From contig NZ_NVQC01000022.1 of the NCBI RefSeq assembly GCF_003044035.1, forward strand, positions 240,001 to 272,000: 32,000 nucleotides of DNA, read 5' to 3'. Shown here one piece after another: positions 7,419 through 23,181 of this stretch. The notes beneath the pieces are model-generated. The model did not search any database and was not told the DNA's origin. It saw only the letters and a list, made by a program, of their open reading frames with translations. Position 1 is the first letter of the stretch; each line of letters opens with the position of its first letter. Made by a program: the position numbers and the translations under genes. This stretch comes from Candidatus Methylomirabilis limnetica. Its GTDB lineage: Bacteria > Methylomirabilota > Methylomirabilia > Methylomirabilales > Methylomirabilaceae.

Positions 7419-8783
7419 CTATTTGAAATCCCGGAATAGTTGCAGCAGTGGTACGAACGCCTGGGTTCCGGTAAGCCCACCAATAGTCGCCAGGATGGTC
7501 CCGATCACGATAGAGAGCAGTAGAAACGCCTTACCCAAATCCTGGCCCCGCAAGGTCCCGACCAGCACCGGCTCGCGCGAGAGATACGCACTCGCGGCGT
7601 AGAGCTCCTCGCCGATCAGGGTGTAATCGCAGGTCGTGATGAAGAATGGTAGCTGCAGGTCGGCGTCGGTCCCAGCAATCTGGATCGCGCCGGTCCCGGC
7701 GCCGGTCTCCGCCAGGAGTAGCGCTTCAGCGTAGTAAAAGCCCATGAAGAAGTTAGCTGCCGGTCGCTCCCGCAGTATAATCCCATTCACCGCGGCGGCG
7801 TAGCTGAACTGATCTGACGTGATGAAAAAGTTCGAATCATCACGATAGGCATCAGGTCGTCCAGCCTCCAGGTATGACTCCTTGACGATCTCCTGACAGA
7901 TAGCCATGACGATTGGATCTCGGTGCGGCACCTTGAGCTCCGTATCGTACGCCGCCGCCTTTTTCGCGACCTGTCCAAGAATTACCGTAGCCGCAATAGT
8001 CGAAAGACTTGACATGTCGTCAGAGCCAGTGAGGTAGAGGATCGGCCGCCCCATCTCGGTCGCCCGGCCAATCGCCTCCTCCACCGCATCCAACCCCGGA
8101 ATCCGGCGCAGGAAGATGGTAGGGCGTCGCTTGGCCTGAGCAATAGCGATCAGGACAAGGGCAGAGAAGAGGAGCACTAACAGAAGGTTGTTGGCCTTTG
8201 CCGAGTTGAAATAATTTGGTACCGGGACTGCTGATCGAACCGGCCCTTCGATCGTCTGCATCCCGCCTGTCCCCGACCTCGATCGGGGATCGGTCACCGC
8301 CACCTTGAAGAAATAGGGTCGGCCACTCTCGATGCGGAGATCCTGCGTCGATTTCACCTGGTAAAAGTGATACGCCTTATTTCGGTCCCAGCTCCACCAG
8401 GGGCGATCAACATCGCTCTTGTGGTGAGTGTTGGCGGGAAACTCTACTAACCGCTTAAAGGGTCCTTGCGCCTGATCAGCTACATAGACCTGATAGCGAA
8501 GCATCGGCCCATCGAAGGGGGCCGATCGCCATGAAAGCCCAATGCTGCCTCCACCGTCGCCAGGCATGTCGAAGACCTCGAACTCTTCTGGAGGGGAGAG
8601 GGGTGAGGCGAGGGTAGAGGGTGTAGGGTATAGGGTGAAGAGAAGAAGAGTGAGGAGTGCGGCAAGAGCGCGTCCCGGGACCCGGTTTCGGGTTTCGGGT
8701 TTAGGGTTTCGGGTGTTAAATTTGGAACTTGGGACTTGAAACTCAAAACTCGAAACTCGAAACTCGAAACTGAACGTCATCAC
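7419..8783 (-). CDS. FN3-like ectodomain / TM helix / conserved cytoplasmic-domain protein, unknown function (cluster gene 4)
   Basis: 454-aa ORF. Start (GTG 8783 or ATG 8780) overlaps the upstream stop. The first ~35 codons are hairpin-repeat sequence, followed by a signal-like helix, a beta-rich domain, a TM helix (LLLVLLFSALVLIAIA) and a ~240-aa domain. Confidence 0.7.
   Translation of the reverse strand: MMTFSFEFRVSSFEFQVPSSKFNTRNPKPETRNRVPGRALAALLTLLLFTLYPTPSTLASPLSPPEEFEVFDMPGDGGGSIGLSWRSAPFDGPMLRYQVYVADQAQGPFKRLVEFPANTHHKSDVDRPWWSWDRNKAYHFYQVKSTQDLRIESGRPYFFKVAVTDPRSRSGTGGMQTIEGPVRSAVPVPNYFNSAKANNLLLVLLFSALVLIAIAQAKRRPTIFLRRIPGLDAVEEAIGRATEMGRPILYLTGSDDMSSLSTIAATVILGQVAKKAAAYDTELKVPHRDPIVMAICQEIVKESYLEAGRPDAYRDDSNFFITSDQFSYAAAVNGIILRERPAANFFMGFYYAEALLLAETGAGTGAIQIAGTDADLQLPFFITTCDYTLIGEELYAASAYLSREPVLVGTLRGQDLGKAFLLLSIVIGTILATIGGLTGTQAFVPLLQLFRDFK
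8683..8772. repeat. Tandem-heptad hairpin H1 ([GTTTCGG]n - loop - [TCGAAAC]n)
   Basis: I paired 8683-8719 with 8736-8772 by hand: ~37 positions, 3 mismatches, about 6 G:T pairs on the plus strand. Confidence 0.85.
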
Positions 8784-9979
8784 GCCTCCAGCAGTTCCAC
8801 GTTGGTTCGAGGGATGATGATTTGCTGCCCATCGTCAAGCTCTGCCTCCAGAACGCGGGCCTTGCTTCCCGTGGGAAGGAGACGAAGGTCGGCCGGAAGA
8901 GCGGATACTCTGCAAATTTGGCCGAAATATGGCTCCCGAATAATCCGGATTTGATCACCAATCTTGAGTCCGCTCCCTATGGCCACACTCACACCTGCTT
9001 CCGCACCCCCTCCCTCGCCCTCCTTCTTCCGCACCTCCTCCCCAACCCTCCCCCTTACTAAGGGGGAGGAAGGAGGGGGTGGGGGGGTGAGCGGGATAAT
9101 CACCTCCGGTCGGATGACGCCGGCCCGAATCTGCGTCTCCCCGGAGCAGGATGCGCGCCGGCCAACTTTGGAGCCCAGGAGGTCGAAGGTTCGCCCGGCC
9201 ATGGCAATTCGACCAAATCCTTCGGTAATGATCAGCGTAAGGCCAACCTGTTCAGTTCCGGTGATGGCGACACCAAGATCCCGCCCGAGGAGCAGTTTCA
9301 GGTCGAGGTCGTGGATGCCGCCTACAACGATGGCGGCAACACCAACTTGCTTTGCTCTGGCGAAGCCATCACGACCGATCAGCGAGCCGCCTACGAGGAT
9401 CGTCCCTCGGTGTGCGTCGGTAATCCGCTCCGGAGTAAGCTCATCGTCTGGACTCCCGACCGCTCTTGCAATCGTCCCCACTGCTTCGCCGCCGATCCCA
9501 AAGATCCCCTGTACGAGACTGCACGCCGTCTCCACTGTGGCGCCCTGACCCGGAAAGATCTCAGCGACATGGCCGTCCAGATAGGCTGTAAGAGCCAGGG
9601 GCCGTGGCGGCTCTCTCAGGAAAACCTGCCCGGTAACTTCGGAGACAGTCTCGATTGTTCCTGTGATAGGAGCAGGAACCTGGACCTTCAGCCATTTGAT
9701 GAATGGATGGTTTTCGGCAAGCGGCTCACCAGCTTGAACTGAATCGCCCTCCCGTTTCAACATATAGCGCCGGATCTCCTGCGGGACGATCCCCAGCAGG
9801 TTGACCACATTTACTGCGTGGACCTTGCCAGGCAGCTCGGTCTGAGCGATCACCGTGGTAGCGGTGACCGCCTGTCCCTCATGGACAAGCACCTGCCCTG
9901 GAATCGGCAGTATTCGCCGCTTCCGAACCACGGTCTGTGGCGCCATGCGCAAGCCTGGTGTGTATGAATGAGCCATCAC
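8780..9979 (-). CDS. Soluble protein with N-terminal barrel-sandwich (lipoyl/RnfC_N-like) and C-terminal KOW-like segments, unknown function (cluster gene 3)
   Basis: 399-aa ORF. N-terminus reads PIPGQVLVHEGQAVTATTVIAQTELPGKVHAVNV. Glycine-rich middle region (ILVGGS, IVVGGIHD). Carries a ~30-aa low-complexity insert encoded by a palindromic element. Confidence 0.7.
   Translation of the reverse strand: MMAHSYTPGLRMAPQTVVRKRRILPIPGQVLVHEGQAVTATTVIAQTELPGKVHAVNVVNLLGIVPQEIRRYMLKREGDSVQAGEPLAENHPFIKWLKVQVPAPITGTIETVSEVTGQVFLREPPRPLALTAYLDGHVAEIFPGQGATVETACSLVQGIFGIGGEAVGTIARAVGSPDDELTPERITDAHRGTILVGGSLIGRDGFARAKQVGVAAIVVGGIHDLDLKLLLGRDLGVAITGTEQVGLTLIITEGFGRIAMAGRTFDLLGSKVGRRASCSGETQIRAGVIRPEVIIPLTPPPPPSSPLVRGRVGEEVRKKEGEGGGAEAGVSVAIGSGLKIGDQIRIIREPYFGQICRVSALPADLRLLPTGSKARVLEAELDDGQQIIIPRTNVELLEA
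9000..9090. repeat. G/C-rich palindromic element inside cluster gene 3, in frame
   Basis: Perfect 11-bp-arm palindrome CCTCCCCCTTA-c-TAAGGGGGAGG at 9047-9069 with C-rich and G-rich flanks. Translated as PPPPPSSPLVRGRVGEEVRKKEGEGGGAEAG. Confidence 0.75.
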
Positions 9980-9987
9980 TTACCCAT

Positions 9988-10059
9988 GTTTCGAGTTTTG
10001 AGTTTCGAGTTTGGGGTTCTTAGATCCGAACTCGACACCCGAAACCCGCAACCCGAAAC
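9988..10059. repeat. Tandem-heptad hairpin H2 (same family as H1, opposite orientation)
   Basis: [GTTTCGA]n (9988-10019), loop TTAGATCC, then [CCGAAAC]n (10028-10059). The periodic A:C oppositions on the plus strand become G:U on the minus strand. Confidence 0.85.
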
Positions 10060-10067
10060 TCCAAACT

Positions 10068-22829: not shown

Positions 22830-22858
22830 GTGAACGCGCCTGTCTGCCGCCAGGCAGG

Positions 22859-23116
22859 TCAGACTGCCGTAATAATGCTGAGGAAGCGGCCTTGTCCCCC
22901 TCGGCGTTCGACAGTCACGACCCCGGATACCCTGGCATACAGCGTATCATCAGAGCCGATCCCAACATTCTTACCCGGTTTGAAGCGGGTACCACGCTGG
23001 CGGAGCAGAATGCTGCCACCCGGCACGGTCTGCCCTGCTCCGACCTTCATGCCCAGTCGCTGACTTTGGCTATCCCGGCCATTCCGGGAACTCCCCATCC
23101 CTTTTTTATGCGCCAT
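22859..23116 (-). CDS. rpmA: 50S ribosomal protein L27
   Basis: [24 protein letters not shown]...[22 protein letters not shown]. Confidence 0.95.
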
Positions 23117-23138
23117 TCTTCACCTCGAATGAATGTCC

Positions 23139-23181
23139 AAGGTTCTAAACGTTGAACATTGAACCTTGAACTTAGAACCTT
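23139..23181. repeat. Short hairpin H9 with TTGAAC direct repeats in the loop
   Basis: AAGGTTCTAA (23139-23148) is the reverse complement of TTAGAACCTT (23172-23181). The loop carries GTTGAAC, ATTGAAC and CTTGAAC. Confidence 0.7.

What the first reader, a model, noticed from the sequence alone, without database searches (positions are those of the whole stretch)
8683..23181. Family of hairpins whose two arms are tandem short repeats, occupying almost every junction of the housekeeping operons
Nine loci share one architecture: [short unit]n, a loop, then [complementary unit]n. The loci are 8683-8772, 9988-10059, 12222-12309, 12701-12790, 13558-13665, 14841-14942, 20249-20306, 21722-21848 and 23139-23181.

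The repeat unit differs between loci: GTTTCGG/TCGAAAC, TAGGGT/ACCCTA, GTTCGTA/TATGAAC and TTGAAC. Within each locus the two arms stay complementary. They sit precisely in the spacers P2/P3, P3/P4, secG/P1, tpiA/secG, pgk/tpiA, gap/pgk, proB/proA, obg/proB and rplU/rpmA. In most bacteria these junctions are short and unstructured.

Arm complementarity is preserved while unit sequence diverges, and the elements are targeted to gene boundaries. This argues for a mobile or actively maintained RNA/DNA structure rather than random low complexity. Possible roles are RNase III-type processing sites, attenuators or insulators of translational coupling.
Basis: seen in the sequence. Interest (0 to 1): 0.7.

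Follow-up and report, generated by a model that had tools for sequence, protein, structure and literature searches.

The report
Heptamer-repeat hairpins at Methylomirabilis gene junctions
Two housekeeping operons of a Candidatus Methylomirabilis (NC10) genome carry a hairpin at most gene boundaries, each arm being a run of 7-base repeats; these belong to the little-understood class of intergenic heptamer repeats already described in Xanthomonas and cyanobacteria, and they turn over very fast.

Summary
Period-7 tracts are strongly enriched in the window: 120 windows at period 7 against 19 or fewer for periods 4-11. All lie between 8607 and 23181.

Seven of the nine listed loci fold far better than shuffles (z -3.5 to -5.3). 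21722-21848 is marginal as RNA (z -2.3). 12222-12309 does not fold better than shuffles.

They are MITE-like copies with (GGCTGAA)n terminal inverted repeats.

The organism is a Methylomirabilis species. Relatives carry the same kind of hairpin at the same junctions, but the unit family can differ, and one relative has empty junctions.

- Units are a 5-nt core plus 2 free positions.
- The two arms match only through the shared core.
- Arm lengths are not balanced.
- Neither strand folds systematically better.
- Three elements overlap ORFs rather than sitting strictly in spacers.
- No Rfam family matches, and terminator-like sites are not above chance.

Best reading: these are fast-evolving palindromic heptamer-repeat DNA elements, like the Xanthomonas GGGAATC inverted pairs and analogous to REP/MITE. 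They are tolerated at cistron boundaries and necessarily form stem-loops in the operon mRNAs. Any RNA function is inferred, not shown.

This is a new member of a known but poorly understood kind, of moderate interest.

The parts
8676..8776 (.). A-family hairpin (GTTTCGR / YCGAAAC) just downstream of the P3 stop. It lies inside the 5' end of the DUF6754 ORF, which starts at ATG 8780 (GGAGG upstream, ATGA overlap with the P3 stop).
   Evidence: (z -5.3). The same hairpin-encoded N-terminal peptide (FSFEFRV...[10 protein letters not shown]) occurs in L211, with a length difference of 21 nt (3 units).
9985..10066 (.). A-family hairpin between the MutL-like gene (PF13941) and P3.
   Evidence: (z -5.0). 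The orthologous junction is A in L007, B in L211, C in L009 and a 1-nt spacer in L213.
12222..12309 (.). C-family array (AGTTCAT-type; clean at 12272-12309) with a decayed partner, between secG and P1. It is not a significant hairpin.
   Evidence: (z -0.36).
12699..12790 (.). C-family hairpin (nGTTCAn / nTGAACn) between tpiA and secG. It starts directly after the tpiA stop codon, and the AGGAGG of secG lies free 3' of it.
   Evidence: (z -4.1).
13555..13665 (.). B-family hairpin (nAGGGTn / nACCCTn) between pgk and tpiA. The pgk stop TAG (13640-13642) is part of a repeat unit.
   Evidence: (z -4.5).
14841..14942 (.). A-family hairpin (GTTCCGA/GTTTCGG) between gap and pgk. It starts 3 nt after the gap stop and ends 4 nt before the pgk ATG.
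   Evidence: (z -5.3).
16106..16265 (.). D-family MITE-like element. Its ~38-nt terminal inverted repeats contain (GGCTGAA)n, with a ~80-nt interior. It lies between the comF-like stop and the gap promoter-like site.
   Evidence: (z -6.2).
20245..20306 (.). A-family hairpin upstream of proA.
   Evidence: (z -5.2).
20321..20501 (.). Second D-family MITE-like copy. The last proB codons and its TAG stop (20482-20484) are encoded by the inverted-repeat end.
   Evidence: third, truncated copy at L089:1-66.
21722..21848 (.). A-family hairpin lying inside the open obg reading frame, where it encodes a 48-aa C-terminal tail. The obg stop overlaps the proB ATG.
   Evidence: Obg domains end near residue 327 of 378; z -2.3; DNA z -4.6. 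Obg is 347 aa in L211.
23139..23181 (.). Short single array (GTTCAAn type) with a small hairpin, between rplU and rpmA.
   Evidence: (z -3.5).
8607..8640 (-). B-type heptamer array that is coding. It encodes TLYPTPSTLA in the signal-peptide region of the DUF6754 protein and is conserved in relatives.

Best explanation
These are palindromic heptanucleotide-repeat elements. Each is a pair of convergent tandem arrays of a 7-nt unit (5-nt core plus 2 free positions). They belong to the class of intergenic heptameric simple-sequence repeats known from Xanthomonas, cyanobacteria and many other bacteria.

Inference: they arise and are kept going at the DNA level.
- Unit gain and loss happens by slippage.
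- Whole hairpins are replaced or newly inserted at junctions.
- The GGCTGAA family shows MITE-like dispersal.

Inference: they persist at cistron boundaries because that is where a self-folding insert is tolerated. Their 5' edge abuts or supplies the upstream stop codon, and their 3' edge ends 4-25 nt before the next start. A closed hairpin therefore leaves stop and start close together.

Once transcribed within the operon mRNAs they must form 20-40-bp imperfect stem-loops. By analogy with REP/BIME, the most likely effect is a barrier to 3' exonucleases or a double-strand RNase target that modulates the relative expression of neighbouring cistrons. That effect is inferred, not shown.
For: **Shown.**
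- Period 7 is specifically enriched, and the hairpins beat shuffles as RNA and as DNA.
- Heptamers are also the dominant 6-12-nt period in an unbiased 1.06-Mb multi-phylum sample. Density is about 14 times higher in Methylomirabilis loci.
- The unit grammar is core plus free positions: nAGGGTn, nGTTCAn, GTT[T/C]CG[A/G]. Rehm 2015 reports the same for GGGANTN.
- No strand preference: sense and antisense MFEs are similar, and G-U pair counts are about equal (tallied by hand).
- Free positions of the two arms are not locus-specifically complementary: 56/58/62% within loci against 48/58/64% between loci.
- Arm unit numbers are not balanced (r = -0.63).
- Evolution is fast. In a recombinant strain tract the hairpins differ by 27-37%, against 5.4% in the adjacent pgk.
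- Family turnover and an empty site occur at the same junction in related species.
- A tandem triplication of a mutated unit, (TAAATCC)3, in L004 shows slippage.
- The D family has three copies with 38-nt inverted ends.
- A-family units contain no stop codon in any frame, and A is the family found inside ORFs. The 5' arms of B, C and D carry TAG or TGA, and upstream ORFs end in them.
- Identical sequences in independent assemblies exclude assembly artefact.

**From the literature.** 70-75 convergent heptamer pairs per Xanthomonas genome sit at conserved junctions with length and sequence variation (PMC4692102).
Against: - The 5-nt cores are conserved while the two spacer positions drift. Pure slippage without any constraint does not predict this.
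- The elements cluster in two core operons. They are nearly absent from about 17 kb of flanking accessory DNA and from the xseA-recN operon, although long spacers exist there. A purely 'tolerated junk' model does not predict this either, unless the accessory DNA is recent.
- The G/T-rich arm is the 5' arm in 31 of 33 hairpins in Methylomirabilis-like loci. That asymmetry is unexplained.
- No mobilising enzyme was identified.
- No transcript data were available.
Confidence: 0.6

Rival explanations
1. The hairpins are primarily selected RNA devices. They would be intercistronic stem-loops in the polycistronic mRNAs, acting as 3'-exonuclease barriers, RNase III sites or attenuators, or holding the upstream stop and downstream start together to keep translational coupling. 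Their DNA dynamics would be secondary.
For: - The position is exact. The 5' edge lies 0-8 nt from the upstream stop at 7 of the 9 listed loci. The 3' edge lies 4-25 nt before the next start, usually leaving the Shine-Dalgarno free.
- The stems are stable, -23 to -58 kcal/mol for the well-folded loci.
- Hairpins persist at the same junctions in species whose proteins are only 63-88% identical.
- They cluster in likely highly expressed core operons.
- In L004 a C-to-U change in three 3'-arm units keeps G-U pairing only in the sense RNA (-39.4 against -22.8 kcal/mol).
Against: - There is no overall excess of G-U over A-C in the sense strand.
- There is no locus-specific complementarity at the variable positions.
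- Arm lengths are unbalanced, for example 9 against 3 and 10 against 4 units.
- One relative does without them at several junctions (L213).
- One listed locus no longer folds.
- There is no U-tract, and the terminator scan is at chance level.
Confidence: 0.27
2. The arrays are binding sites on double-stranded DNA for a protein that reads 7-bp heptads in direct and inverted orientation, as ribbon-helix-helix proteins such as the omega repressor do. The hairpin potential would then be incidental.
For: - A conserved 5-bp core with 2 free positions and strict 7-bp phasing.
- Both arms carry the same core in opposite orientation, without specific arm-to-arm complementarity.
- The two strands behave symmetrically.
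- The omega-type precedent is from my own knowledge and was not tested here.
Against: - At least four or five unrelated cores (GTTTCG, AGGGT, GTTCA, GGCTGAA, GGTGCGA) coexist in one 15-kb stretch.
- The core swaps at a given junction between close species. That would need several proteins with interchangeable roles.
- The sites lie inside operons rather than at promoters.
Confidence: 0.07
3. The elements act through G-quadruplex or i-motif formation, as proposed for Xanthomonas GGGAATC and Nostoc GGGGAYT repeats.
For: B-family arrays (GGGTAnA)n and some A-family arrays (GGGTTTC)n provide four or more G3 tracts with 4-nt loops. Rehm 2015 showed G4 formation for similar heptamers.
Against: C-family (GTTCA), D-family (GGCTGAA) and GTTCCGA arrays have no G3 tracts yet share the architecture and location. 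The complementary arm competes for pairing.
Confidence: 0.04
4. Chance low-complexity sequence or an assembly artefact.
For: None beyond the weak fold of 12222-12309.
Against: Period-7 enrichment and shuffle controls. Sequences are identical in independent assemblies from several samples. Orthologous elements occur in other species.
Confidence: 0.01

Closest known systems
Convergent inverted pairs of G-rich heptamer repeats (GGGAATC / GGGANTN) in Xanthomonas campestris and X. axonopodis (Rehm et al. 2015, PMC4692102)
   Same: - 7-nt unit with conserved and free positions.
- Short arrays, typically about 4 units.
- Mostly intergenic.
- 70-75 pairs per genome in convergent orientation with stem-loop potential.
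- Present between the same genes in related species, with extensive length and sequence variation.
- Function unknown.
   Different: - Here several unrelated unit families coexist, most without G-tracts.
- The family at a junction can be swapped between close species.
- Elements fill most junctions of two operons and intrude into ORF ends.
- The phylum is different (NC10).
Cyanobacterial STRR heptanucleotide repeats (Mazel et al. 1990; STRR inside RNase P RNA helix P12, Vioque 1997). Cited from my own knowledge; only the reference titles were seen.
   Same: Tandem heptamers of several unit types, dispersed in non-coding DNA within operons. They can form extended helices when present in both orientations.
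   Different: STRRs are mostly described as direct arrays. Rehm 2015 found only a few inverted pairs in Nostoc. Unit sequences are unrelated.
REP / BIME / REPIN elements of Enterobacteria and Pseudomonas
   Same: - Extragenic imperfect palindromes between co-transcribed genes or at 3' ends.
- They form mRNA stem-loops.
- A REP close to a stop codon affects the upstream gene (own knowledge).
- They evolve and spread within genomes (PMC3116915, PMC3333891; abstracts seen).
   Different: REPs share one genome-wide consensus palindrome with a conserved GTAG end and are linked to a RAYT transposase. Here the arms are tandem heptamers of several families, with no common consensus, and no transposase was found in the 49 kb examined.
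TAACTGA intergenic direct heptamer repeats of marine Beggiatoaceae, cyanobacteria and Bacteroidetes (MacGregor 2015, PMC4679880)
   Same: Short heptamer arrays in intergenic regions, including ribosomal-protein operons, close to start codons. A post-transcriptional role is proposed but untested.
   Different: That system has a single unit sequence and almost only direct repeats (169 direct sets against one indirect repeat). Here inverted pairs dominate and there are several unit families.
MITEs (miniature inverted-repeat transposable elements)
   Same: The D family has ~38-nt terminal inverted repeats, a partly conserved 80-100-nt interior and at least three dispersed copies.
   Different: No target-site duplication was evident and no parent transposon was seen. 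Families A-C share nothing beyond the heptamer arrays themselves.

Membership tests
Intergenic heptameric simple-sequence repeats, inverted-pair type (Mrazek 2007; Rehm 2015) | Tandem iteration of a 7-nt unit, with period 7 over-represented against neighbouring periods | tested here: met
   In the Methylomirabilis loci, 38 tracts at period 7 against 0-6 at other periods.
Intergenic heptameric simple-sequence repeats, inverted-pair type (Mrazek 2007; Rehm 2015) | Two arrays of the same unit in convergent orientation close together, able to form a stem-loop | tested here: met
   Met for 7 of the 9 listed loci plus 2 extra elements, with 21722-21848 marginal as RNA. Not met for 12222-12309. 23139-23181 is a single array.
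Intergenic heptameric simple-sequence repeats, inverted-pair type (Mrazek 2007; Rehm 2015) | Unit with conserved and variable positions (heterogeneous repeats such as GGGANTN) | tested here: met
   Information is 1.1-1.8 bits at core positions against 0.2-0.5 bits at the two free positions in families B and C.
Intergenic heptameric simple-sequence repeats, inverted-pair type (Mrazek 2007; Rehm 2015) | Predominantly intergenic location | tested here: met
   Of the 16 period-7 tracts, only the array at 8607-8640 lies in coding sequence that is conserved in relatives. Three elements overlap non-conserved ORF ends.
Intergenic heptameric simple-sequence repeats, inverted-pair type (Mrazek 2007; Rehm 2015) | Same gene context in related species, with length and sequence variation | tested here: met
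G-quadruplex-forming heptamer repeats (Rehm 2015, narrow sense) | Four or more G3 tracts per array | tested here: not met
   Met only by family B and some family A arrays. Families C and D and the GTTCCGA arrays lack G3 tracts.
REP / BIME / REPIN | One genome-wide consensus palindrome (about 20-40 nt) with a conserved end motif | tested here: not met
   There are several unrelated unit families. Nothing is conserved outside the heptamers, and loops are unrelated between loci.
REP / BIME / REPIN | Extragenic position within or at the end of operons | tested here: met
REP / BIME / REPIN | Associated RAYT (IS200/IS605-like Y1) transposase and hundreds of copies per genome | not testable with these tools
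   Only about 49 kb of this genome could be read. None was seen there.
MITE (D family only) | Terminal inverted repeats and multiple dispersed copies | tested here: met
   The inverted ends are GTAACTACTCAGGTGTTTAGGCTGAAGGCTGAAGGCTG and its complement. Three copies were found.
MITE (D family only) | Target-site duplication and a related autonomous transposon | tested here: inconclusive
   No duplication was evident in the flanks of the two complete copies. A parent element could not be searched for.
Intrinsic (Rho-independent) terminators | GC-rich hairpin followed by a U-tract | tested here: not met
   18 sites against 13.4 +/- 4.1 expected. Only the two mirror-image 13-nt matches at 20288-20300 fall inside a listed locus, and none corresponds to a full heptamer hairpin followed by a U-tract. 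No T-runs follow the hairpins.
Any Rfam family | Match to a curated covariance model | tested here: not met
   no hit at any heptamer hairpin up to E = 1.

The most novel reading that the evidence does not exclude
Heptad-periodic palindromes may form one cross-phylum class of element with a shared grammar. They were seen here in NC10, Planctomycetota, Omnitrophota, Zixibacteria, Chloroflexota and Terriglobia loci, and have been reported in Xanthomonas. The grammar would be a 5-nt core plus 2 free positions, usually with the G/T-rich arm first.

On this reading, an unknown dedicated mechanism actively installs and replaces them at stop/start junctions. That mechanism could be hairpin-targeted insertion or template switching. 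The elements would act as self-folding 'silent spacers' or processing sites that set the relative expression of neighbouring cistrons.
Probability: 0.15. Interest if true: 0.75.

Novelty: new member of a known kind. Interest (0 to 1): 0.45.

Why it matters
Heptamer repeats are the most abundant longer simple-sequence repeats in many bacterial genomes. Their origin and role have stayed unexplained since 1990.

This operon gives an unusually dense and comparable set.
- The same junctions are occupied by different unit families in close species.
- One relative has empty sites.
- Strain-level alleles are available.
- In-frame intrusions into three genes are present.

That makes questions of origin (slippage against insertion), constraint (core against spacer positions, arm polarity) and effect on operon expression directly testable. 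The organism also matters in its own right, because it is a nitrite-dependent methane oxidiser.

Practical consequence for annotation: gene callers translate through some hairpins, producing doubtful N- and C-terminal tails on Obg, Pgk, ProB and the DUF6754 protein.

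Tried and rejected
- **Rfam scan of the whole window at E <= 1.** It gave only spurious miRNA-like hits on an unrelated C/G palindrome.
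- **Terminator and promoter consensus scan.** Terminator-like sites were at chance level. Two plausible promoters lie upstream of rplU and gap.
- **Strand test for RNA selection.** I compared sense and antisense MFE and G-U counts. There was no asymmetry.
- **Covariation test at the free unit positions between arms.** There was no locus-specific signal.
- **Arm-balance test.** The correlation was negative.
- **Metagenome scan for (GTTTCGR)3.** The sample was heterogeneous, with many long one-directional arrays mixed with TTTAGGG that look like eukaryotic telomere variants. It was useful only for a rough polarity count: 12 partners downstream against 4 upstream.
- **A universal 'G-rich arm first' rule.** It holds for 31 of 33 hairpins in Methylomirabilis-like loci and in about 10 of 11 hairpins in the multi-phylum sample. 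It fails in two other NC10 genomes, where 4 of 6 are C-first. I therefore report it as a bias, not a law.
- **Literature searches.** Methylomirabilis plus heptamer found no paper. A search on intercistronic heptamer stem-loops found nothing relevant. The Vioque 1997 paper is not held.
- **Contig look-up of window ORF 3379-4359.** It failed because the start codon differs from the recorded gene call.

Full report
**1. What is in the sequence**

The window has 59.5% G+C. Between about 3.4 and 25.3 kb all genes lie on the minus strand.

These are followed by a small ORF (P1), a PF13941 'MutL' protein, P3 and a DUF6754 protein.

TRF and my own period scan find 16 period-7 tracts, all between 8607 and 23181. 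Windows with at least 17 of 21 self-matches number 120 for period 7, against 0, 0, 0, 6, 19, 0 and 0 for periods 4-6 and 8-11.

Folded as RNA of the transcribed strand, seven of the nine listed loci beat 200 dinucleotide shuffles clearly (z -3.5 to -5.3).
- 21722-21848 is marginal (z -2.3).
- 12222-12309 is not a significant hairpin (z -0.36).
- 23139-23181 is a single array with a short hairpin.

DNA-parameter folds of the other strand are also significant for six of the seven loci folded; 9988-10059 is not (z -1.3).

These have (GGCTGAA)n arms and long loops (z -6.2 for the first).

**2. Whose genome, and is it real**

The TpiA protein is encoded identically on 13 public contigs, including a 372-kb contig. 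The closest named genomes are Candidatus Methylomirabilis MAGs, with 77-82% TpiA identity.

Independent assemblies (L001-L003, L005) are base-for-base identical with one another over the operon, hairpins included; L001 encodes the window's proteins at 100% identity. The arrays are therefore not assembly artefacts.

**3. Anatomy**

Units fall into families. Oriented as the G/T-rich arm, they are:
- A: GTT[T/C]CG[A/G]
- B: nAGGGTn
- C: nGTTCAn
- D: GGCTGAA
- a degenerate GGTGCGA type

Across 79-91 units per family from four species, the core positions carry 1.1-1.8 bits. The two flanking positions carry only 0.2-0.5 bits. The stems are therefore 5-6-bp blocks separated by 1-2-nt mismatches.

The 5' edge of the element lies 0-8 nt from the upstream stop codon at seven of the nine listed loci. 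The 3' edge ends 4-25 nt before the next start at seven of them. The spacer is essentially the hairpin plus, where present, a Shine-Dalgarno sequence.

Three elements overlap ORFs.
- The obg frame runs open through 21722-21848, giving a 48-aa tail beyond the Pfam domains. It stops in an ATGA overlap with proB. Obg is 347 aa in the close relative L211.
- The DUF6754 ORF has a GGAGG-ATG at 8780 overlapping the P3 stop. It reads through hairpin 8683-8772 before its signal-anchor helix. L211 has the same arrangement, with a length difference of exactly 21 nt. L007 and L213 start directly at the hydrophobic segment.
- The pgk and proB stop codons are part of repeat units.

A-family units contain no stop codon in any frame in either arm. 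The 5' arms of B, C and D contain TAG or TGA. With a 7-nt period, this closes every frame within three units. This fits which families are found inside ORFs and which ones terminate them.

**4. Comparative evidence**

Orthologous operons were obtained from seven other NC10 genomes.

Hairpins of the same architecture occupy the same junctions, usually with the same family.
- B sits at pgk|tpiA in five lineages.
- C sits at tpiA|secG in four.

There is also clear turnover.
- The MutL-like|P3 junction carries A in the window and L007, B in L211, C in L009, and is a 1-nt spacer in L213.
- tpiA|secG is C in the window but a reversed D-like hairpin in L211.
- gap|pgk in L007 holds a lone (CGCACCT)n array.
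- pgk|tpiA in L008 has no heptamers.
- L213 has tight junctions (1-53 nt) at four places that are filled in the window.

In strain variant L004, a recombinant tract shows 27-37% difference in the two hairpins, against 5.4% in the pgk coding sequence between them. It contains a triplicated mutant unit, (TAAATCC)3, which is a direct trace of slippage.

The D family is a dispersed element. It has three copies with 38-nt inverted ends and partly conserved interiors.

**5. Tests bearing on mechanism**

(a) Strand symmetry. Sense and antisense RNAs fold about equally well over 29 hairpins, and G-U counts are about equal (tallied by hand). A selected sense-strand helix should tolerate G-U but not A-C.

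(b) The free positions of the two arms of one locus match in 56%, 58% and 62% of cases for families A, B and C. Arms from different loci of the same family match in 48%, 58% and 64%. Complementarity therefore comes only from the shared core.

(c) Unit numbers of the two arms are not balanced (Pearson r = -0.63, n = 15).

(d) No Rfam family matches, and terminator-like sites are at chance level.

(e) Distribution. There are no heptamer tracts in the other 17.5 kb of the window. Only one occurs in about 17 kb of added flanks, which are rich in toxin-antitoxin and other accessory genes.

(f) Generality. In 1.06 Mb from 77 unrelated genomes chosen only by TpiA homology, period 7 gives 41 tracts, against 7 and 10 for periods 6 and 8. 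Inverted pairs occur in Planctomycetales, Zixibacteria, Chloroflexota, Omnitrophota and Terriglobia loci. Density in the Methylomirabilis loci is about 14-fold higher.

(g) Polarity. The G/T-rich arm is the 5' arm in 31 of 33 hairpins in Methylomirabilis-like loci and in about 10 of 11 hairpins in the multi-phylum sample. In two other NC10 genomes only 2 of 6 are G-first. These counts are not phylogenetically independent.

**6. Interpretation**

Tests (a)-(c), the near-neutral or faster divergence, the slippage trace, the family replacement and the MITE-like D family all point the same way. These are elements born and maintained at the DNA level.

They match what is already described as intergenic heptameric simple-sequence repeats.
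- Mrazek 2007 found heptamers to be the most abundant longer repeat class and proposed polymerase slippage (as summarised in PMC4679880).
- Rehm et al. 2015 described 70-75 convergent pairs of GGGANTN arrays per Xanthomonas genome. These have stem-loop potential, are conserved in gene context and vary in length and sequence.

I therefore file the finding as a new member of that kind, in a new phylum and with several unit families.

Three observations are not explained by passive DNA dynamics: the conserved cores, the clustering in core operons and the polarity bias. They keep a functional reading alive.

Because the elements lie inside operons, they must appear in the mRNAs as long imperfect stem-loops. 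The closed hairpin brings the upstream stop and the downstream start close together. My inference is that this is why only self-folding inserts are tolerated at junctions that relatives keep tight or overlapping (L213). Any REP-like effect on mRNA decay or processing is by analogy only.

**7. Limits**

- No transcript data were available, and only about 49 kb of this genome could be read.
- No mobilising enzyme was found.
- The relatives are MAGs.
- The statements on STRR in RNase P RNA, on REP effects near stop codons and on omega-type heptad operators rest on my own knowledge, not on a tool result.

Noticed in passing
window 16106-16265, 20321-20501; L089:1-66: Three copies of a MITE-like element. 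Its 38-nt terminal inverted repeats contain (GGCTGAA)n, and its interior of 80-100 nt is partly conserved. One copy supplies the last codons and the stop of proB.
   Followed up: yes
window 20374-20463 (+ strand): Gene callers place a 29-aa ORF (MSQAFAECDAKMMETEKVLGALIRSMRNG) inside the second MITE-like copy, opposite to the operon. The first copy can encode a similar EKVL..IR..R peptide by hand translation. It is probably spurious, but it is conserved between the copies.
   Followed up: partly
window 8990-9095 (inside P3 ORF 8780-9979): A C-rich/G-rich palindrome within the coding sequence encodes a Pro-rich then Gly-rich linker. The linker is hypervariable in length and sequence among five species. 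It is the source of the spurious miRNA-like Rfam hits.
   Followed up: partly
window 8607-8640: A B-type heptamer array is coding. It encodes TLYPTPSTLA after the signal-anchor helix of the DUF6754 protein, and is conserved as LYPxPxTLA in L007 and L009 (LSPIPYPLA in L211).
   Followed up: yes
L007:10745-11650: The tpiA|secG hairpin of this relative is split by an ~850-nt insert carrying a GIY-YIG nuclease ORF (Pfam E = 5e-16). The hairpin loop has acted as an insertion site.
   Followed up: partly
window 17373-17725: The 353-nt rsfS-dksA spacer is highly structured (MFE about -150 kcal/mol). It holds an exact 21-nt direct repeat (CGATACCCCGCAGCTTGCCGC) at 17553 and 17683. No Rfam match.
   Followed up: partly
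window 18869-18959 and 7300-7415: The proA|nadD and DUF6754|next junctions hold hairpins built from degenerate GGTGCGA-type units plus C-run/G-run palindromes. The same unit forms clean arrays in L007 and L009.
   Followed up: no
window 28290-28335: A period-9 array, (ACGCTAAGG)n on the sense strand, sits at the xseA|xseB junction. It is the only non-heptamer tandem array at a junction in the window.
   Followed up: no
L004:2475-3866, L006:1-213: Strain variants with identical TpiA carry a recombinant tract covering the gap 3' end, pgk and both flanking hairpins (5.4% divergence in pgk against 0-0.7% elsewhere). The Pgk C-terminus differs because the stop lies in the repeat.
   Followed up: yes
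L212:8864-8970: In another NC10 genome the pgk|tpiA hairpin is built from an 8-nt unit (GCAATCAG)n. The architecture is therefore not strictly tied to 7 nt.
   Followed up: no
L110, L119, L124, L138, L146 and other Ga0307489 contigs: Many metagenome hits to (GTTTCGR)3 are long one-directional arrays mixed with TTTAGGG/CCCTAAA units. They are probably eukaryotic telomere-variant repeats, unrelated to the bacterial hairpins.
   Followed up: no
L087:1-10000, L089:1-10000: Both flanks of the window region are dense in toxin-antitoxin modules (PemK, HicB, PIN/RHH, HigB) and include a family-B DNA polymerase gene. They look like accessory or mobile DNA and lack heptamer hairpins.
   Followed up: no
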